Position numbers and translations under genes: made by a program
Assembly (NCBI GenBank): GCA_005879815.1
Contig: VBKA01000069.1
Coordinates: forward strand, 1-32,435
DNA from: Chloroflexota bacterium
GTDB lineage: Bacteria; Chloroflexota; Limnocylindria; QHBO01
DNA: 32,435 nucleotides
Reading direction: 5' to 3'
Shown here: positions 4,488 through 14,054 of the stretch, in pieces
Position numbering within the stretch: position 1 is the first letter of the stretch
Layout: every line of letters begins with the position of its first letter
The notes under the pieces: model-generated
What the model saw: the letters and a program-made list of their open reading frames with translations, nothing else
The model's database searches: none
Told to the model about the DNA's origin: nothing

Positions 4488-5541
4488 CAGGACGCGCCGC
4501 CGCCACCGGTCCATAGCGCATGGCGGTCCTGCCCACGACCTGGGCAACGGACTCGCGCAGGCTGGCGGGGGCCAGGACCTCAACCGCATCGCCCCACGAC
4601 AGGATCCACGGCCGGATCTCGACAATACCGGCGACGGTGAAGGTCAGCTCGACGCCCCCGTCAGGCAGCTTGACCAAGCGCTGCGAGCGGTGCCACACCG
4701 CCTCCTGCACGCGACGCGCGATCGAGGCGTCGAACCGCAGACGGACCTCCTCGGTGGGCGTGCCTTCCGAGGACCAGATCCCCCACGAGTGTGCGAGGTA
4801 GCGGTCAGGATCGAAATCATCGGGAATCTCGTAGCGCTTGGTGGTCAGCGTGGCGGATCGAGTGCGCTCGATCTTGAACGTGCGCAGGGCGCCGGCGGAC
4901 TCGTCGAAGCCGATGAGATACACGGTGCGCAGCGCGGCATCCGGCTCCAGGAAGTACGGGTGGACCCGCGTTGACCGGCGGGGCCCCTCGCTTGGCTCGT
5001 AGTCGATCTCCACCACCAGCCCCTCGGACCATCCTCGCGCGACGGTCGCGAAGGTCCGCGTGAAGGGCTCGTTCGGCGAGTGCTCCCCGACCGCCAGCAT
5101 CGTGGCCGCCACGTGCCTGGCGATCGGCTGAGGGAGAAGGTCGGCGAGCTTGGTGAACGCGCTCACGACGGCCTGGTCGTATTCATCGCTCCAGCGTGCG
5201 ATAAGCCGGGCCGCCAGGAAGAGCACGATCGCCTCAGGCACGGACAGGTGCAGGGGCGGCAGGAAGTACTTGCGCTCGATCCCGTATCGGCCCCTCCCAG
5301 CCTGGAAGATGGGGACCGCGAGCTCCTCCTCGAGCGCGTTGAGGTCGCGGTAGACCGTCCGGGTGGTCATGCCAGTGAGCCTCGCGATCTCCGCGACGGG
5401 GACGCCCTGCTCGCCGCTTCCCACGCTGTACAGGATCGACGCGACCCGCAGCAGACGCGCGAGGCGATCACGCTTGCGTCCGGCGCGATCGTCGGCGAGC
5501 CCGTCCTCGCCCCACTCGTCGGCTGCTGGATCAGCCCTCAT
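4480..5541 (-). CDS. HTH-WYL-WCX transcriptional regulator (YafY/PafB/PafC-like)
   Basis: N-terminal wHTH (VAEIARLTGMTTRTVYRDLNAL), WYL domain (RVHPYFL...VYLIGFD...LRTFKIERTR), and WCX domain (WILSWGDAVEVLAPASLR). Confidence 0.93.
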   Translation of the reverse strand: MRADPAADEWGEDGLADDRAGRKRDRLARLLRVASILYSVGSGEQGVPVAEIARLTGMTTRTVYRDLNALEEELAVPIFQAGRGRYGIERKYFLPPLHLSVPEAIVLFLAARLIARWSDEYDQAVVSAFTKLADLLPQPIARHVAATMLAVGEHSPNEPFTRTFATVARGWSEGLVVEIDYEPSEGPRRSTRVHPYFLEPDAALRTVYLIGFDESAGALRTFKIERTRSATLTTKRYEIPDDFDPDRYLAHSWGIWSSEGTPTEEVRLRFDASIARRVQEAVWHRSQRLVKLPDGGVELTFTVAGIVEIRPWILSWGDAVEVLAPASLRESVAQVVGRTAMRYGPVAAARPGG

Positions 5542-6442: not shown

Positions 6443-9400
6443 TCAGGCGGCTCCAGCGACGGCGGGTCGGTCCGTGCGTCGCCGTCGCGCTCGGATCGGC
6501 TCGGGGTCCGGCACGACGACGGCCTGAAGCGCGTCCAGCACCTCGCCTCGCAGGCGGGGATGCGCGGCCTTCATCGCGGCCACCGCTTCCCCAAACTGCC
6601 GTCGCCGGGCAGACGGAGCGTGGGCCATCTCGTCGTAGGCATTGGCGGCGGCGACGACTTCGGTGGCCAGCGAGGTGGAGGCGCGCAGTCGCCGCCGCGG
6701 ACGGCCCTCTGCGAGCTGACGGACACCCGCGATCACCTCGCCCACTTCGCGCAACGAGCGGATGGCTCCGAGCTCAGTACGTCCGAGGCTCGTCACCTCA
6801 TGCAGGCGCGCCGCCAGCTCGATGACCTCGATCTCCTCCTGCGTACAACCGAGACGCTCGGCCATCGCGGAGGCCAATCGTCCAACACGGTCCGCGTGCT
6901 GGCTCATGGCCTTCCCAGGATCGAGCGAGCGAGACACCGTCAGGAGCACGGAGCGGGTTGCATCCTCGGATTGGACGTCCGCGCCGCCCAGGCGCGCGGC
7001 CTTCTCGACCAGGTGCTCGACCGCGCCCGCCTCTTCCGGGTGCATGAGGGCCGCGCGGGCCAGCTGGTCGAGCGTTCCGCGCAGGTCGCGCATCTCGCTC
7101 GGCACGTCGGCGAAGCGCACGACCCGGTTCTCCCCGGACCGCTTGCCGTGATAGAGCGCCGTGTCCGCGGCGGTGATGAGGGAGTTCTTGTCTCGCGCAT
7201 CGGCCGGGAAGGCCGCGGCGCCCACGGTGATGGTCACCGGGGTCGCCTCCGAGGCGCTCAGGCGGGCGACGGCCCGGCGGATCCGGTCGCCGACAACGGC
7301 GGCGTCGGCAGCGTCCACGTCGCTCAGCACGAGCGCCAGCTCGTCGCCTCCGTAGCGGTAGACGCGGTCACCGGTGCGCGCCGCGGTGGTGATTGCGCTG
7401 CCGATGGCCTGCAGCAGGGTGTCGCCGGCCGGGTGGCCCAGCCGATCGTTGTAGTCCTTGAAGCGATCGAGGTCCATCATCAGCAGGCCGATGCGCGGTG
7501 TGTCGGCCGTATCCGGGTCGGCCTCCTCGAGCAGCTCCGACAGGTAGCGCTGGAACGAGCCGTGATTGCCCAGGCCGGTGAGCGCATCGGTCTCGGCGCG
7601 GATGCTGACGGCCTGGTGCGCCTCGGCCGGTCTCCGAGAAGTACGCCTCCTCGCCTCCGATGCGCCCGATGTTCATGGAGCCGATCGCCTCGCCGTCGTT
7701 GATGAGCGGCACGACGCAGAGCGCCTCCGGATCGGGTGGCGTCCCCGGAATCTGCAGCGCGCGGGGATCGTTGAGGGCGTCGTTGGCGAGGACCGGCTCG
7801 CCGTTATCGAGGGCCCAGCCCATCAGGCCGCGACCGAAGGGGATGATGTAGCGCGCCACCTCGGCGGCGTGCCGTTCGCGGGTGAGGACCGGGACGAAGA
7901 TTCGCTTGAGGTGGTCCGCGCGGTAGATCGAGAGGTTGTCGTAGGTCACCACCGAGCGCAGCCCGTCGGCGATCAGCTCAAGGACGCTGGCCTGGTCGAA
8001 GGTCGAGAGCAGCTTCTCGTTGATCTCCAGCAGACGGCGTTGCGACTGCAGCTGTCGCGCGAGCTCGCCTGACTGGATCTCGAGGCGCTCGAACGAGCGC
8101 GCGTTGGCGATGGCCTGCGCCGCGTAGCCGGCGAAGATCGACATCGTCGCCAGGTCATCGGTGCTGAACTGGTTGGTGCCCAGCTTGGAGAGTGCCACCA
8201 CGCCGACCGCTCGACCCTCGTACAGCATCGGCACCACCAGCATCGACTCGTCGATGTCATCGGTCCCGTCGATGGTGTGGCCTCGGTCATCGGCGAGCGC
8301 GTCGTTGATGAGCATCGGCTCGCCGGTCTGCGCCACCATGCCGGTGAACGAGCCTTCGCCGACGGTCACCCGCAGCCGGTCGCGGAAGTCGCCCTCGCCC
8401 AGCAGGCGGTCCGTGAACGCGACCGGCTCGCAGATTCCATGCTCCCAATCAACGGTATAGATGCGGATGTCGTGGTACTCGGCGAGGGTGCTCGCCTCGG
8501 CGACGATTGCCTCGGCGATGGCCTGCACGTCGGTCAGCCGGTTGAGCCGCGACGAGAGGTCCTGGATCGAACGCATGCGGGCTGCCTGGTCGGCGACCGA
8601 CCGATACAGCCGCGCGTTGCTGATTGCCACCGCCGCCTGGTTCGCGAACGACTGGACCAGCGTGAGCTCCTCCTCCGGCCATTCCCGGTCGCGCGTGTGG
8701 TAGAGACCGATGACGCCCACCGCCCGCTCGTGGCTGACCAGCGGGACGAGGCAGGCTGTCTCAATGCTCTCCGCGGCGTAGGTGGCTCGCATCTCACCGG
8801 CGGTCGTGTCGGTGCCGGCCCGGTGCACCACAAACGTGCGCCGCTCCCGCACGGCCCGGACGCCAACCGAGACGCTCTGCAGGTTGAGCGCGCGCACTCG
8901 AGCCTGGAACGCGTCACCGATGCCGCGTGAGGCGGCGAGCTGGAATGGGTGATTGCCCTCGACCACCAACCACAGCCCGGCCTTGTCCGCTTCGAAGAGG
9001 GCGCGGGTCCGATCGACGACGTCGTCGAGCACTGCGGCGAGATCGAGTTGACCGGTAAGCTCCTGGGTGACCGCCCGCAGCGCACGGGAACGCGTCACCT
9101 CGCGACGAGCGCGCGACAGGAGGCGGGCATTGTGGACGGCGACCCCCAGCGCTCCGGCGACGGTGCGCAGGAAGGGCAGCTGGGCGCGGCTGAGGGTCGT
9201 CCCGGTCGGGTCTGCGATGACCAGCAGGCCCAGTGGGTCGCCCGCTGCCCTCAAGACGAGCCGGGCCTCGGTCATCGGCTCGCCGTCCTGCCCCATCCTC
9301 GCCTCGACCTGGGCCAATGCCGACTCCTCGATCAACGATGGGGGAGCGACGTGATAGCCCGCATGCGTTTCGAGGCGGAGGGCTCCCCGGCTGGCCAGGT

Positions 9401-9767
9401 AGATGGCGACCTGCGCATAGCCATACTGCGTCCGGAGCGCGTCGATCGCCACGCGGCACACGGAGACCGGGTTCGGCCCGCTGGCTCCCTGCGCGAGACG
9501 GCCAAGGACGGCAAGCTCGTGGTCCCGCTGCGACGGATCGTGGCTCGCGACGGCCCCCTCGGTGAGGGCACCCTCGGCGAGCAGGCGCTCAACGTCTCCA
9601 CGTCGGAAGCGCCGGTCGCCGCGCGCGTTGATTCGATACGCGGGAAGACGGCCTGAGTCGGTCCAGGTGCGGACCGTGTTGGGGTGGACGCCGAGCAGCG
9701 CCGCCGCCTGGGCGACGCTGATGAGTGCCTGATCGTCCCCGTCACGGGTCCGCGCGTGAATCGGCAC
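6443..9767 (-). pseudogene. HTH(excisionase/BldC-like)-4xGAF-GGDEF-degenerate HD-GYP protein, frameshifted at 7627/7628
   Basis: Frame A (9767-7629) gives the HTH (ISVAQAAALLGVHPNTVRTWTDSGRLPAYR..RGDRRFRRGDV) and four GAF repeats. After one extra base, frame B (7627-6443) continues AEAHQAVSIRAETDALTGLGNH...MMDLDRFKDYNDRLGHPAGD...RTGDRVYRYGGDEL, then HADRV...AARLHEV. The ORF track reports these as two overlapping ORFs. Confidence 0.88.
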
Positions 9768-9914: not shown

Positions 9915-10670
9915 TCAGCCGGCGGCGAGAACGCTCGCCAGGCTGGCCACGACGCCCCCGACCAGGAGCAGACCGCCGACGGCGAGGACGGCGATCGCCA
10001 CGGCAAGCTGCCGACGATGCGGCCCTCCCAGCAGCCGCATGGCCGCGTCGAGCTCGAGTGCGGAGATGACGAAGCCGCCGGCGGGAGGCTCGAGGCGTGC
10101 GGCGCCCCCGCCAGCCACCCGAACCTGGGCGAGGACGAGGAGACGGTCCACCTCCGCGATCGTGCGGGTCACCGCGCGCGCGGCGACGGGTGGTCCCTCT
10201 TCGGCCCCGACCCGCGCGAGGCCCGACGCCAGCTCACCACCAAGCTCGTCGGGTCGACCCTCCCAGACTAGGGGAATCGTGACGAGTGGCTCGGCGGCCA
10301 GCGCTGGATCGACCACCATCGATCCGGCATGGTCCCAGAGCTCGAATGAGCGCGTTTCCCGAAGCCGCTCGATGGTGCGCCATGCGCCCTTTGGCGACCT
10401 GACATCGACGTCGCGGTGATAGGCCACCAGGCGCTCGCCATCGGGTGCGACGAGGGGGTCCGGGCAACGAATGCGGCCCGTGACGCGGAGGGGCCGAGAC
10501 GGCGCCTGGGTCAGGCCTGCCGCGTCGCCCACCGTGATCTCTCTCGCACCCGCGAGTCGCCTGCCGAGCCCCATCTGTGCGCCGATCGCACGCAACCACA
10601 GCGCGCCTGAGGCGAGGAGGACCGCTCCCAGCAGCGCGCAGCCGAAGAGGATGACGGGCAGCGGGGGCAT
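9915..10670 (-). CDS. Membrane protein with GIDE-like domain between N- and C-terminal TM helices
   Basis: TM helix, then RVTGRIRCPDPLVAP...WRTIE...SFELWDHAGSMVVDP, then a second TM helix; this resembles bacterial GIDE-domain proteins. The start was re-called at ATG 10670, with a -10 TAGACT 8 nt upstream. Confidence 0.6.
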   Translation of the reverse strand: MPPLPVILFGCALLGAVLLASGALWLRAIGAQMGLGRRLAGAREITVGDAAGLTQAPSRPLRVTGRIRCPDPLVAPDGERLVAYHRDVDVRSPKGAWRTIERLRETRSFELWDHAGSMVVDPALAAEPLVTIPLVWEGRPDELGGELASGLARVGAEEGPPVAARAVTRTIAEVDRLLVLAQVRVAGGGAARLEPPAGGFVISALELDAAMRLLGGPHRRQLAVAIAVLAVGGLLLVGGVVASLASVLAAG

Positions 10671-10726
10671 CGCGGGTGAGTCTATCCCGGTAATCCGGCG
10701 GTAAGCAGGCCCCGATATCGTGGCAT

Positions 10727-10836
10727 CTGCGAGCACGGACCGCCGGTCCGGTCGCCGCGGCAGGGAGGTTCCCGACGCCAACGAGAGTTCCGTCATCGGT
10801 CGCAGTCAATACGCATCCGAACGGAGGTCTCCGATG
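10727..10836 (+). ncRNA. Candidate structured cis-regulatory 5' leader (riboswitch-like, unassigned)
   Basis: A -10 TATCGT lies at 10716-10721. The leader has a closing stem CTGCGA/TCGCAG, internal hairpins, and a mutually exclusive anti-SD hairpin AGAGTTCCGT/ACGGAGGTCT. Confidence 0.45.
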
Positions 10837-11892
10837 TCCGTCAGGCATCGATCAATCCGGGGCGGCCGCGCACGCCTTCGCTCCGCCGTGCCGATTCTCA
10901 TCATCATCACCGTCGCCTCCCTGAGTGGCGCGCAGATCGCGAGCGCCGATCCGCCACCCACTGCCACCGTCAAGACCGCCGACCAGGCACGTGCCTCGGG
11001 GTCTGCCGTCGGGGTCGTCCGCCATGTCGAGCAGGGCGGCGAGCTCCTCGAGCTCCAGCTGCCCGCCACCAGGATCGATTCGTCGGCGCTGCCCGCGTCC
11101 GAGCGGGCGCGTCGCGCCTATGGGCGCTTCCTGGATAGCGCCCCCACTGGAGCGCTCGTGGTCGCGGACGGCGTGGGCGACCCGGAGGGCGGCCTGGTTA
11201 TCGGCTTTCCCGACGGCTCGCAGGTGCACACCGGCCTGGCCGGCGTGGCCGGCGCTGCATTCGCGCCCGACGGCTCGTGGCTGGCGGCGGTCGACGCTTC
11301 CGGTCGGCTGTGGCGCATCGAGGCGAGGACAGGAGTTGCCTCATCCCTTGCGGCCGGCCCGTACACGGGCTCGGTCCGCTTCACGCGCTCCGGCCAGCTG
11401 CTCCTGGTTGAGGCCGCTTCACTGGAGAAGCCGTTCGCATCGACGGTCGTCCGCCTGGCCCCGGACACGCGGCGTGCGGTCCTGGTTGACAGCGAGGACG
11501 GCTTCGTCTTCTCGGCCGCCGAGCTGGCGGACGCCTCGATTGCCGTGACGACGCACGTCTTCGGCGGGGGCGTTGAAGTGCACCGCGTGAAGGATGGGGC
11601 GTCGGGAAGGCTGGCCAGCCTCGACCCGAGCGCGATCGATGCCTCGCTGGCCGATGACGGAACGCGCATCGCCTACACGGTTGAAGGCGAGGTCTACCTG
11701 CATGACGTGCCCCACGGCACGGTGCAACGCATCGGGCCGGGCGAGCTCCCTCGCCTTGCGCGCGACGGAAGCTCGCTGCTGGTCCTGCGCGACGGGCAAA
11801 CCCTGCTGCTGGCTTCCGACGGCACCGAGCTCGACCGCTTCGGAACCGCCACAGTGGGCTGGGCGAACTGTGCGGGGAGGTGCCAGCCATGA
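10834..11892 (+). CDS. Secreted beta-propeller (TolB/WD40-like) protein
   Basis: GGAGG SD precedes ATG 10834. The signal peptide ends ...AQIASA. Blade-like repeats are AAFAPDGSWLA, VRFTRSGQLL, ASLADDGTRIAY and PRLARDGSSLL. Confidence 0.75.
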   Translation: MSVRHRSIRGGRARLRSAVPILIIITVASLSGAQIASADPPPTATVKTADQARASGSAVGVVRHVEQGGELLELQLPATRIDSSALPASERARRAYGRFLDSAPTGALVVADGVGDPEGGLVIGFPDGSQVHTGLAGVAGAAFAPDGSWLAAVDASGRLWRIEARTGVASSLAAGPYTGSVRFTRSGQLLLVEAASLEKPFASTVVRLAPDTRRAVLVDSEDGFVFSAAELADASIAVTTHVFGGGVEVHRVKDGASGRLASLDPSAIDASLADDGTRIAYTVEGEVYLHDVPHGTVQRIGPGELPRLARDGSSLLVLRDGQTLLLASDGTELDRFGTATVGWANCAGRCQP

Positions 11893-12887
11893 TTGGCCGC
11901 GTCTCCATCGGTCTGTCATTCGCCATGGCTGTCTCGCTGGCGAGCGCCAGCCGCGCGCTGGCCACCGACGACTACACCCTTCCCTTCTACGACCCCTCCA
12001 TCTCGCTCTCCTACGGTGTCGATCGTGATCCCAGGGTCTGCTACCAGCGCGACTGGGCGAATGTCCTGTGGACCGACTGCAACCTCCACTACGGCCGCGT
12101 CTATGACGGCCACACGGGCATGGACTACCCGATGCCGGTGCTCAGCCCCATCGCCGCCTCACGTGACGGAACAGTGATCGACCTGTTCGAGGGTTTCGGC
12201 ACCGAGCAGTTCGGCACCAACGGGAACTACGTGCTCGTTTCGCACGCCGATGGGCGACGGACGCTCTACTACCACCTGGGCCACGACGGCGCGCGCGTGT
12301 CGGTGGGCCAGACGGTGGCTGCAGGCCAGTGGATCGCGGATTCCGGCTGCAGCGGGCAGTGCTACGGGGCACACCTCCACTTCGAGATGCGCGCCGTGAT
12401 CAACGGACGCTGGACATCGGTGGATCCCATCTTCGAGAAGCGGTTCACCACGAATCCCGGGCGAGTTCCTTTCCTGGCCACGTACCTTCGCGAGTCGAAC
12501 AGCGGCACCGAGGTGATCAAGCGCTACACGACCGTCACGCATTGGGTGGAGTTCGTGAACGCCGGCGGTCGAACGTGGCGGAACAACATCGGGATTGGTC
12601 GAGTGCTGCTGGGCACTTGGAACCCTGCGACGCGCGACAGCAAGTTCAGCGCGCTTGACTGGCCGTCGAGCTGGGTTGCGACCAACGTCGACCAGAGCGC
12701 CGTGCCGCCCGGCGGCGTGGGTCGATTCACCTTCGGGTTGCACGCGGAGAGCCCGCCGGGAACCTATGACGAGCCATTCAACCTGCTGGCGAACAGCCTG
12801 CGCTGGTTCGACTGGCCTCGGCTCGGGTCGTTCCACGTGCCGATCCAGGTGATCCTCAATACCAGGTTTGGCGCGCCCCAGAAATGA
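11889..12887 (+). CDS. Secreted M23 family metallopeptidase with C-terminal Ig-like (NBR1-like) domain
   Basis: HxxxD (HTGMD), GNYVLVSH, TLYYHL and HxH (GAHLHFE). C-terminal VEFVNAGGRTW...VPPGGVGRFTF...PGTYDEPFNL. ATGA overlap with the upstream gene. Confidence 0.92.
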   Translation: MIGRVSIGLSFAMAVSLASASRALATDDYTLPFYDPSISLSYGVDRDPRVCYQRDWANVLWTDCNLHYGRVYDGHTGMDYPMPVLSPIAASRDGTVIDLFEGFGTEQFGTNGNYVLVSHADGRRTLYYHLGHDGARVSVGQTVAAGQWIADSGCSGQCYGAHLHFEMRAVINGRWTSVDPIFEKRFTTNPGRVPFLATYLRESNSGTEVIKRYTTVTHWVEFVNAGGRTWRNNIGIGRVLLGTWNPATRDSKFSALDWPSSWVATNVDQSAVPPGGVGRFTFGLHAESPPGTYDEPFNLLANSLRWFDWPRLGSFHVPIQVILNTRFGAPQK

Positions 12888-13327
12888 GGTTCATCGGCCG
12901 CGGCGCGGTGGTTCTGCTACTGGCCGCGGCCGCCTCCGGCTGCATGGCACGGGAAGAGGCCGGCACGTCGCCCGTCGCTGCGTCGAGCGTGGGCGGCGGC
13001 CTTTCTTCCCCGACCGCGGAGGGATCACCGCCTTCTGAGAGGCCGGCCGCCCCGTCCGGATTTCCGATCATGCCCGGCGCAAGAACTGCTCCGCTGCCCG
13101 ACGATGCCACGCTGATCGCCCGATGGAGCGTGCCGGTTGTCGGCAGCGCCGCCTATGACTTCTACACTCGCGCGCTGCCCAAGGCGGGCTTCGCCATCGT
13201 GGGAGCCTATCCGACGGAGCGCGCCGCTCTGATCCGGTTCCGCGATCGGACGGGGACGATCTGGCAGCTGCTGGCGGAGCTCGTCGGCGATCGGACCCAA
13301 GTCACGATCCAGACGGATCGGCCCTAG
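12884..13327 (+). CDS. Hypothetical lipoprotein
   Basis: Signal sequence LLLAAAASGC, an S/P-rich linker, and FPIMPGA...YDFYTRALPKAGF. ATGA overlap with the M23 gene. Confidence 0.75.
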   Translation: MRFIGRGAVVLLLAAAASGCMAREEAGTSPVAASSVGGGLSSPTAEGSPPSERPAAPSGFPIMPGARTAPLPDDATLIARWSVPVVGSAAYDFYTRALPKAGFAIVGAYPTERAALIRFRDRTGTIWQLLAELVGDRTQVTIQTDRP

Positions 13328-13845: not shown

Positions 13846-13864
13846 GGCCGGCACAGCTCAAGAG

Positions 13865-13948
13865 CGACAGGGGAGCGCGAGAGCGCTGAGAGTGCGGGCG
13901 ACCGCAGACCCTCCAACCTGATCTGGGTCATGCCAGCGAAGGGAGTCG
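13865..13948 (+). ncRNA. TPP riboswitch (THI element)
   Basis: AGGGGAGC...GCTGAGAG...GACCCT..AACCTGATCTGGGTCATGCCAGCGAAGGGA matches the canonical THI-box. P1 is CGAC/GTCG. It precedes thiamine salvage and transport genes. Confidence 0.97.
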
Positions 13949-14054
13949 GTGACCACCTTCGCGGCGCACTCATGTGAGTGCGCCGTTCGTCGTTCTCATG
14001 AGCCGATGGGGCGCCGGACGCGGTGCCTCGGCGCCGGAAGGGAGCGACGCGAGC

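What the first reader, a model, noticed from the sequence alone, without database searches (positions are those of the whole stretch)
10727..10836. Unannotated riboswitch-like leader controlling a secreted beta-propeller / M23 peptidase / lipoprotein operon
Seen: a -10 (TATCGT, 10716-10721) puts the transcript start at about 10727-10728, where CTGCGA (10727-10732) can pair with TCGCAG (10800-10805) to close a multi-stem domain. That domain contains the inverted repeat CGGACCG-C-CGGTCCG (10736-10750) and GGC-A-GGGA-ggt-TCCC-GAC-GCC-AA (10759-10781). An alternative hairpin pairs AGAGTTCCGT (10784-10793) with ACGGAGGTCT (10821-10830) at 9 of 10 positions including a G-U, burying the GGAGG SD. CATCGG (10794-10799) can alternatively pair with CCGATG (10831-10836), which includes the start codon. 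The closed domain and the SD-blocking fold are mutually exclusive, the geometry expected of a translational ON switch. Established: cell-wall hydrolase genes (M23, NlpC/P60, Rpf) are frequent targets of cyclic-dinucleotide riboswitches. The GGCA...GACGC.AA segment echoes the c-di-GMP-I P2 core, but the GNRA tetraloop and receptor are not visible. Inference: this is a new or variant riboswitch. A diguanylate cyclase gene lies two genes away on the opposite strand.
Basis: partly seen in the sequence, partly recalled or inferred. Interest (0 to 1): 0.75.

Follow-up and report, generated by a model that had tools for sequence, protein, structure and literature searches.

The report
Conserved ribosome-site-hiding mRNA leader
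The stretch is the start of a messenger RNA for a cell-envelope operon in uncultured soil Chloroflexota, and its conserved part is one long hairpin that hides the ribosome binding site, not a recognisable small-molecule-sensing riboswitch.

Summary
Comparison of orthologous leaders from one family of Chloroflexota (relatives' record titles: Candidatus Limnocylindria) changes the interpretation.

Supported:
- The -10 box, and so the start near 10727. It belongs to a lineage-wide promoter pattern.
- The hairpin that buries the Shine-Dalgarno (SD) sequence. 10783-10793 pairs with 10821-10831 at 10 of 11 positions, with compensatory changes across genera.

Not supported:
- The closing stem CTGCGA/TCGCAG and the multi-stem domain. 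They are absent beyond the closest relative, and the 5' hairpin is optional.
- Any likeness to c-di-GMP-I. Rfam finds nothing even at E<=10, yet a canonical c-di-GMP-I riboswitch scores 70.6 bits elsewhere in this genome.

Unexplained: two conserved unpaired boxes 5' of the hairpin. One is a strong SD-like GGGAGG (10763-10768) with no start codon; the other is CGCCA (10776-10780).

The motif occurs once per genome, always before this operon.

Verdict: a real, undescribed, lineage-specific translational leader whose trigger is unknown. A ligand riboswitch is possible but unlikely.

The parts
9915..10670 (-). Divergent neighbour gene: membrane protein with a weak GIDE-like match. Its start codon is at 10670-10668.
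   Evidence: PF12483 E 0.0011, below the curated cut-off. It sits next to the operon in 37 of 37 loci.
10679..10684 (-). Candidate -10 (TAGACT on the minus strand) for the divergent gene, 8 nt from its ATG. This implies a leaderless or near-leaderless mRNA. Inferred.
   Evidence: Read. An equivalent A/T-rich block sits beside the start codon in the other leaders.
10689..10706 (+). Tandem promoter repeats GGTAATC (10689-10695) and GGTAAGC (10700-10706), 11 nt apart.
   Evidence: D1. Conserved in 36 of 37 leaders. The pattern has 78 matches in 31 of 41 family genomes, against 0 for the backwards control.
10716..10721 (+). -10 box TATCGT (TANNNT).
   Evidence: It lies 16-17 nt after the start of the second repeat in 36 of 37 leaders.
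10727..10833 (+). 5' leader of the operon, about 107 nt. The start is inferred from the -10, not mapped.
   Evidence: No RNA data were available.
10736..10750 (+). 5' hairpin CGGACCG-C-CGGTCCG. Kept within the genus, optional across the family.
   Evidence: I5.
10763..10768 (+). Box A: GGGAGG, a strong SD-like box with no start codon after it.
   Evidence: Conserved in alignments A1 and A2. Predicted to bind the 16S 3' tail at least as well as the true SD.
10776..10780 (+). Box B: CGCCA, a conserved unpaired box (GCC nearly invariant).
   Evidence: Its possible pairing with the start-codon region is not above the controls.
10783..10793 (+). Anti-SD strand GAGAGTTCCGT, the 5' strand of the hairpin.
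10794..10820 (+). Variable loop of the hairpin. In the window CGG 10797-10799 pairs with CCG 10817-10819.
   Evidence: The sequence is not conserved.
10821..10831 (+). SD strand ACGGAGGTCTC, the 3' strand of the hairpin. The SD GGAGG is at 10823-10827, with a G x G mismatch at 10787/10827.
10834..11892 (+). Gene 1: secreted TolB-like protein (N-domain plus beta-propeller), ATG at 10834.
11880..12887 (+). Gene 2: secreted M23 peptidase. It overlaps gene 1 by 13 nt.
   Evidence: PF01551, 3.4e-20.
12884..13327 (+). Gene 3: putative lipoprotein. Its ATG overlaps the stop of gene 2.
   Evidence: Found in 36 of 37 loci.

Best explanation
10727-10836 is the 5' leader of a tolB-like / M23 peptidase / lipoprotein operon. 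It is transcribed from a promoter type common in this family: two GRTAAGC repeats, then TANNNT.

The conserved core of the leader is a single imperfect hairpin. 10783-10793 pairs with 10821-10831, so the Shine-Dalgarno sequence and the spacer up to the start codon are double-stranded. One G x G mismatch is kept opposite the SD. The leader therefore acts as a translational gate that is closed by default.

Directly 5' of the hairpin lie a strong SD-like box with no start codon (10763-10768) and a CGCCA box (10776-10780).

My most likely reading of the trigger is an inference and was not tested. The upstream SD-like box is a docking (standby or decoy) site for the 30S subunit. It sets how often the weak point of the hairpin is exploited. 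Temperature or a trans-acting factor may modulate this.

What is shown: conservation, single-copy association with this operon, and covariation in the helix. What is inferred: the transcript start, the closed default state and the trigger.
For: - Orthologues of gene 1 occur in 79 of 176 family genomes. The four-gene arrangement holds in 37 of 37 loci.
- A covariance model built from 35 leaders hits exactly once per genome in 55 of 151 genomes, each time at the orthologous locus. It also hits 19 of 24 metagenome loci that were found through the neighbour gene.
- 11-pair helix on the MAFFT-only alignment A1: 76.7% of cells paired against 72.3+-0.8 in shuffles (0/500); 18 cells changed on both sides against 7.5+-2.2 (0/500); partners slid by 1-3 columns give 35-55%.
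- Same helix on A2: 77.6% against 73.9 (0/500); 17 against 7.0 (0/500).
- Same helix on A4, 55 distinct rows: 78.6% against 74.1 (0/500); 34 against 14.1 (0/500).
- Compensatory changes arise in separate genera: G-C to A-U in g1, g14 and g21; A-U to G-C in g1, g21 and g4; A-U to U-A in g14.
- In the most diverged genus, g12, the anti-SD word is replaced by CCTCC, which still complements the SD (read by eye).
- The window's own MFE and centroid folds contain the helix.
- Freeing the SD costs 12.6 kcal/mol on average.
- Box A complements the family's 16S 3' tail over up to 12 nt. Its mean predicted duplex is -12.6 kcal/mol, against -10.4 for the true SD.
Against: - Thermodynamics is not distinctive in this GC-rich genome. 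The SD is predicted 0.21 unpaired natively and 0.25 with shuffled upstream sequence. The duplex energy between ribosome site and upstream sequence ranks 135th of 266 genes, which is the median.
- The helix is in the hairpin-only MFE for only 23 of 42 leaders, and in the 96-nt MFE for 18 of 42.
- Independent compensatory events are few, about six, and related sequences inflate the shuffle statistics.
- Both strands are also strongly conserved in sequence, so a DNA-level or protein-binding reason is not excluded.
- The transcript start is not mapped.
- Boxes A and B have no demonstrated role, and the standby idea rests only on complementarity to 16S rRNA.
Confidence: 0.65

Rival explanations
1. 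A new, small ligand-binding riboswitch. Boxes A and B together with the hairpin form an aptamer for an unknown metabolite or second messenger, and ligand binding shifts the SD helix.
For: - Boxes A and B are conserved unpaired nucleotides directly next to an SD-sequestering helix. This is the layout of small translational riboswitches.
- No Rfam family explains them.
- Cell-wall peptidase genes are known riboswitch targets. For example, a c-di-AMP riboswitch controls a peptidase gene in Corynebacterium glutamicum (PMC9960051; title and abstract seen in the listing).
Against: - No second helix, pseudoknot partner or covarying pair involves box A or B.
- The motif is single-copy and tied to one operon.
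- The segment between the promoter and box A varies from about 7 to 50 nt with no conserved fold.
- Box A reads as a plain SD sequence.
Confidence: 0.12
2. A variant c-di-GMP-I riboswitch.
For: - A GGDEF gene lies two genes away.
- The lineage does use c-di-GMP-I riboswitches.
Against: - The Rfam c-di-GMP-I model does not match 10600-10950 even at E<=10.
- The same model scores 70.6 bits at another locus of this genome and matches in 10 of 26 relatives.
- The proposed P1 stem and the P2-like segment are not conserved.
Confidence: 0.02
3. A trans-acting protein or small RNA binds boxes A and B and opens or locks the hairpin. One version is autoregulation by an operon product.
For: - Sequence-conserved, structure-free boxes are typical of sites recognised in trans.
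- Single-copy, operon-specific motifs are typical of autoregulatory leaders.
Against: - No candidate binder was identified.
- CsrA, the obvious reader of GGA motifs, was not found in any of the 21 genomes searched, while the control genomes matched.
- The operon products are secreted proteins, which argues against direct autoregulation.
Confidence: 0.15
4. The conservation acts on DNA, for example as an operator downstream of the start site, or on mRNA stability. The SD pairing is then incidental.
For: - SD-pairing potential is ubiquitous in this genome.
- The ACGGA/TCCGT words recur as inverted repeats.
Against: - G.U-preserving and compensatory changes fit RNA pairing, not a DNA palindrome.
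- The local palindrome reading (ACGGA-N3-TCCGT) is not above the controls.
- The spacings of the repeated words differ.
Confidence: 0.08
5. Box A is the ribosome site of a short upstream open reading frame, that is, a leader peptide.
For: - A strong SD-like box is present.
- In a few leaders TTG or CTG follows box A.
- In two leaders the differences fall on third codon positions (read by eye).
Against: - Most leaders, including the window, have no ATG, GTG or TTG at a usable distance.
- Where NTG occurs it lies only 2-3 nt from GGAGG.
- The reading frame relative to the conserved blocks is not constant, and stop codons interrupt it in some leaders.
Confidence: 0.03

Closest known systems
SD-masking RNA thermometers (ROSE, fourU). 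Recalled, not tested.
   Same: One imperfect hairpin pairs the SD with an upstream strand, and a non-canonical G x G position is kept opposite the SD. The mismatch is retained across genera, although it moves by one position in g1 and g14.
   Different: - No Rfam ROSE or fourU match.
- The gene class differs: a cell-envelope operon, not heat shock or virulence genes.
- The helix is longer and more stable (mean -15.4 kcal/mol).
- There is an extra upstream SD-like box.
- A temperature response has not been tested.
Ribosome standby-site leaders such as E. coli tisB. Recalled, not tested.
   Same: A structured, closed ribosome binding site is preceded by an upstream region where a 30S subunit could wait.
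   Different: Here the upstream element is a conserved SD-like box complementary to 16S rRNA, not an unstructured, S1-dependent stretch. No functional data exist.
Expression platforms of translational riboswitches, and the c-di-GMP-I (RF01051) and c-di-AMP/ydaO (RF00379) classes.
   Same: An anti-SD:SD helix precedes envelope genes. The ydaO class controls cell-wall peptidases in Actinobacteria (PMC9960051; listing only).
   Different: No aptamer is present. Neither model matches here. c-di-GMP-I is found elsewhere in the same genome. c-di-AMP was found in 0 of 16 genomes of this family, counting the window's own.

Membership tests
c-di-GMP-I riboswitch (RF01051) | Match to the Rfam covariance model at or above the gathering score of 35 bits. 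| tested here: not met
   No match at gathering in the whole window. No match at E<=10 in 10600-10950. The same model scores 70.6 bits at G000:C274:65-144.
c-di-GMP-I riboswitch (RF01051) | A conserved P1-closed two-stem aptamer with a tetraloop and its receptor. | tested here: not met
The proposed P1 (10727-10732 / 10800-10805) is absent outside the nearest relative. RNAalifold predicts only the SD helix.
c-di-AMP / ydaO riboswitch (RF00379) | Match to the Rfam covariance model. | tested here: not met
   In addition, 0 of 16 genomes of this family (15 relatives plus the window's own) hold the family anywhere.
Riboswitch (generic) | A conserved ligand-binding fold: covarying stems that enclose conserved unpaired nucleotides. 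| tested here: inconclusive
   One covarying helix sits beside two conserved unpaired boxes. No second helix or pseudoknot was found.
Riboswitch (generic) | Direct binding of a small molecule. | not testable with these tools
   Needs in-line probing, SHAPE or ITC.
SD-sequestering translational leader | An upstream strand complementary to the SD and conserved across orthologues. | tested here: met
   8.5 of 11 possible pairs on average over 42 leaders. 10 of 11 pairs in the window.
SD-sequestering translational leader | Covariation that preserves the pairing. | tested here: met
   About six independent compensatory events, above both the shuffled and the slid controls.
SD-sequestering translational leader | The pairing lowers translation. 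| not testable with these tools
   Needs reporter fusions or toeprinting.
ROSE / fourU RNA thermometers | Match to the Rfam models, and temperature-dependent melting. | tested here: not met
   No Rfam match. Melting cannot be tested here.
CsrA-regulated leader | A CsrA protein encoded in the genome. | tested here: not met
   PF02599 was not found in 0 of 21 genomes searched. The control genomes matched.

The most novel reading that the evidence does not exclude
Boxes A and B together with the mismatched SD hairpin form a compact sensor of a previously undescribed class, specific to Limnocylindria. It would sense a ligand, a protein or the pool of free 30S subunits, and gate translation of a TolB-like / M23 envelope module. 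That module is transcribed from a promoter class shared with DNA-uptake, repair and replication genes (comEA, comM-like, recJ-like, uvrD, ssb, dnaB). The arrangement would tie cell-wall remodelling to a competence-like or DNA-damage-like regulon in an uncultured class.
Probability: 0.15. Interest if true: 0.65.

Novelty: new member of a known kind. Interest (0 to 1): 0.4.

Why it matters
Limnocylindria are abundant soil and freshwater bacteria. All 51 relatives found are metagenome-assembled genomes, and I know of no cultured representative (recalled). Only 17 papers in the searched library mention the class, and none of the 15 listed titles concerns gene regulation.

A conserved leader with covariation support, together with the promoter class it hangs on, gives concrete cis-elements. 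These can be tested in heterologous reporters and used to annotate these genomes.

For the scan, the result is a caution. In GC-rich DNA, riboswitch-like stems can be drawn almost anywhere. Here only the SD-masking helix survived comparison with relatives.

Tried and rejected
- Rfam at gathering and at E<=10: nothing on the leader.
- Consensus sigma-70 and terminator scan: 0 sites. It was uninformative, because the lineage's promoters lack a TTGACA-type -35.
- Local hairpin ACGGA-N3-TCCGT as an anti-anti-SD: 62.7% paired, below the shuffled mean.
- SD pairing with TCCG just after the ATG: 78.3%, reached by 63/500 shuffles.
- Box B pairing with the start-codon region: 70.7%, reached by 29/500 shuffles, no covariation.
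- Mutual-information scan of all column pairs: no stacked covarying pairs.
- 5' hairpin as a conserved feature: mean z = -0.61, and z < -1 in 10 of 28 leaders.
- CsrA hypothesis: rejected.
- Upstream ORF and minus-strand small ORF: no consistent start codon or frame (by eye).
- ECF-type promoter and LexA-box readings of the GGAAC..GTC words: inconsistent spacing across leaders (by eye).
- SD accessibility against shuffled upstream sequence, and genome-wide duplex energies: this leader is not distinctive.
- RNA evidence for the transcript start: no RNA holder was listed.
A single protein was used instead.
- Genes downstream of the canonical c-di-GMP-I riboswitches in relatives: ORF calls were uncertain and nothing informative emerged.
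- One literature query failed on term format and was not repeated.
- Searches for a published description of such a leader found none: 'Limnocylindria' and 'riboswitch' + 'M23' + 'peptidoglycan hydrolase'. Only listings were read. Supplements are closed.

Full report
WHAT IS IN THE WINDOW

Two genes diverge from the 163-nt intergenic region 10671-10833. On the minus strand lies a membrane protein (9915-10670) with a weak GIDE-like match. On the plus strand lies an operon of three overlapping genes:
- 10834-11892, a secreted protein with no Pfam hit;
- 11880-12887, an M23 peptidase (PF01551, 3.4e-20);
- 12884-13327, a putative lipoprotein.

The first protein was modelled from an 18-sequence alignment (pLDDT 86, pTM 0.81). 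Its best structural matches are TolB proteins over their full length (E 9e-13). So "secreted beta-propeller" is right and can be sharpened to TolB-like.

On its own the window gives no statistical support for structure:
- The 114-nt fold has z = -1.18.
- The consensus sigma-70 scan finds nothing.
- Rfam matches nothing on the leader at gathering or at E<=10.
- The only Rfam match in the window is a TPP riboswitch at 13859-13961.

RELATIVES

Gene 1 has orthologues in 79 of 176 genomes of the same family (16 of 24 genera). Record titles of relatives found in genome contigs name them Chloroflexota, mostly Candidatus Limnocylindria, and all are metagenome-assembled genomes.

The arrangement of neighbour gene, TolB-like gene and M23 gene is the same in 37 of 37 loci. 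The lipoprotein gene was found in 36 of 37.

Some counts include unpublished genomes. These are, and the genomes are G002, G051, G052, G101 and G189. All alignments, the RNA model and every covariation statistic exclude them.

THE PROMOTER

In 36 of 37 leaders two GRTAAGC repeats 11 nt apart are followed by TANNNT, which begins 16-17 nt after the start of the second repeat. In the window these are 10689-10695, 10700-10706 and TATCGT 10716-10721.

The pattern GRTAAK-N5-GRTAAK-N10/11-TANNNT has 78 matches in 31 of 41 family genomes. The same pattern read backwards has none in any of the 41. It is therefore a genuine promoter class of the lineage. The start itself is not mapped.

THE LEADER

Between the -10 and the conserved core, the leaders differ in length (about 7 to 50 nt) and in sequence.
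- Strong GC hairpins such as the window's 10736-10750 occur in the longer leaders but not in the short ones (mean z = -0.61).
- The proposed closing stem CTGCGA/TCGCAG is found only in the window and its 94%-identical relative.
- That stem is not part of the window's own MFE fold.

The blocks conserved across the whole family are, in window coordinates:
- a purine-rich SD-like box A (GGGAGG, 10763-10768);
- box B (CGCCA, 10776-10780);
- an anti-SD strand (10783-10793);
- a variable loop of about 25-30 nt;
- the SD strand with the spacer (10821-10831);
- ATG followed by TCCG.

A covariance model of 35 leaders finds exactly one match per genome in 55 of 151 genomes, always at the orthologous locus. 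It also finds 19 of 24 metagenome loci that were reached through the neighbour gene. The motif is therefore single-copy and specific to this operon.

STRUCTURE TESTS

RNAalifold predicted only four pairs, between TCCGT and ACGGA. My first partial models were not above their controls.

Folding the individual leaders showed that the two upstream words form one strand. That strand pairs with the SD, and with the spacer 3' of it, as an 11-pair helix holding one G x G mismatch.

The helix was tested on three alignments.

| Alignment | Cells paired | Shuffled | Cells changed on both sides | Shuffled | Covariation score | Shuffled |
|---|---|---|---|---|---|---|
| A1 (MAFFT only) | 76.7% | 72.3+-0.8 (0/500) | 18 | 7.5+-2.2 (0/500) | 0.233 | 0.168 (0/500) |
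| A2 (42 rows; the model knew only the inner five pairs) | 77.6% | 73.9+-0.6 (0/500) | 17 | 7.0+-2.1 (0/500) | 0.207 | 0.158 (0/500) |
| A4 (55 distinct rows, metagenome leaders added) | 78.6% | 74.1+-0.6 (0/500) | 34 | 14.1+-3.3 (0/500) | 0.227 | 0.161 (0/500) |

With the 3' partners slid by 1-3 columns, 31-55% of cells pair in the three alignments.

The compensatory changes are spread over genera:
- G-C to A-U in g1, g14 and g21;
- A-U to G-C in g1, g21 and g4;
- A-U to U-A in g14.

That is roughly six independent events. It is modest but real. The tool's warning that relatedness inflates the shuffle control applies here.

In the most diverged genus, g12, the model fails (0 of 18). By eye those leaders keep an SD-like box, a GCC-rich box and a CCTCC word that complements the SD directly.

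In the window, 10 of 11 positions pair: 10783-10793 with 10831-10821, G x G at 10787/10827 and G.U at 10788/10826.

WHAT THERMODYNAMICS DOES NOT SHOW

- Freeing the SD costs 12.6 kcal/mol on average, and the hairpin alone averages -15.4 kcal/mol.
- Such values are normal here. The SD is predicted 0.21 unpaired natively and 0.25 with shuffled upstream sequence.
- Among 266 genes of this genome with a GGAGG site, this leader's duplex energy between ribosome site and upstream sequence is at the median (135 of 266).
- The helix appears in the MFE of the isolated hairpin in 23 of 42 leaders, and in that of the 96-nt stretch in 18 of 42.

The case for function therefore rests on conservation and covariation, not on energy.

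BOXES A AND B

No pairing partner was found for either box.

Box A is not followed by a usable start codon in most leaders. It is complementary to the 16S rRNA 3' tail read in six relatives. The match reaches 12 contiguous bases in genus g14. The mean predicted duplex is -12.6 kcal/mol, against -10.4 for the true SD.

I read box A as a 30S docking site, acting as a standby or a decoy, placed about 15 nt 5' of a closed ribosome site. This is an inference.

CsrA, the usual reader of GGA motifs, was not found in any of the 21 genomes searched.

THE CYCLIC-DINUCLEOTIDE IDEA

- The GGDEF gene is there. A GGDEF domain lies at 6446-7480 on the minus strand. It continues an HTH plus three-GAF open frame, with a frame break near 7480.
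- The Rfam c-di-GMP-I model finds a canonical copy elsewhere in this genome (C274:65-144, 70.6 bits) and in 10 of 26 relatives. It finds nothing in the leader at E<=10.
- The c-di-AMP class was found in 0 of 16 genomes of this family, counting the window's own.
- The general premise holds for c-di-AMP in Actinobacteria: cell-wall hydrolase genes can be riboswitch targets (PMC9960051; title and abstract in the listing).
- It does not carry over to this locus.

VERDICT

This is a real, conserved cis-regulatory leader that is not in Rfam. Its supported element is an SD-masking hairpin with a retained mismatch. Its unexplained elements are an upstream SD-like box and a CGCCA box.

It is a new member of a known kind, the translational leader. 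It is not a demonstrated riboswitch, and it is not related to c-di-GMP-I. The signal that opens the hairpin is unknown.

Searches of the paper library for the lineage and for riboswitch plus M23 listed nothing that describes such a leader. Only listings were read, and supplements could not be seen.

Noticed in passing
window 10689-10721; G000:C223:4879-4911 (-); loci L139-L185: The tandem-repeat promoter class (78 matches in 31 of 41 genomes, against 0 for the backwards control) also precedes other genes. These are ComEA-like (SLBB+HHH), DnaB, SSB, ParA-like, DHH/RecJ-like, ComM/YifB-like Mg-chelatase and UvrD genes. Of 20 downstream proteins scanned, 8 had Pfam hits, all of these kinds, and 12 had none. 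The set looks like a DNA uptake, repair and replication regulon, with an activator site in place of a -35.
   Followed up: partly
G000:C223 about 4760-4880 (-); L141, L144, L146, L147, L166, L173, L176, L180: The comEA-like genes share their own conserved leader across genera. It has a GC-rich hairpin followed by a CCTCC-type word facing the SD. This may be a second lineage-specific leader motif.
   Followed up: no
window 13859-13961 (+): A canonical TPP riboswitch (66.1 bits) precedes a thiamin pyrophosphokinase gene, a permease gene with a PF09819 (ABC-type cobalt transport) match, and an ABC ATPase gene.
   Followed up: no
window 6443-9767 (-): An HTH(MerR-like) plus three-GAF open frame continues into a GGDEF domain in another frame. 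This is either an apparent frameshift or an assembly error near 7480.
   Followed up: partly
G000:C274:65-144 (-): A canonical c-di-GMP-I riboswitch (70.6 bits) lies at a contig end of the same genome, and 10 of 26 relatives hold one. The downstream genes were not resolved.
   Followed up: partly
window 10668-10686 (-): The divergent membrane-protein gene seems to be leaderless or nearly so. A -10-like TAGACT lies 8 nt from its ATG. Several other promoters of the class also start their gene 4-10 nt after the -10.
   Followed up: no
L157 (G170, genus g11); L073-L084 (genus g12): Diverged versions of the leader exist where the covariance model, or the protein search at 1e-10, found nothing. The true spread of the motif is therefore wider than 55 of 151 genomes.
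   Followed up: partly
window 10834-13327 (+): A TolB-like protein, an M23 peptidase and a lipoprotein are encoded together, with a conserved divergent membrane protein beside them. This recalls a Tol-Pal-type envelope module in a Chloroflexota class.
   Followed up: no
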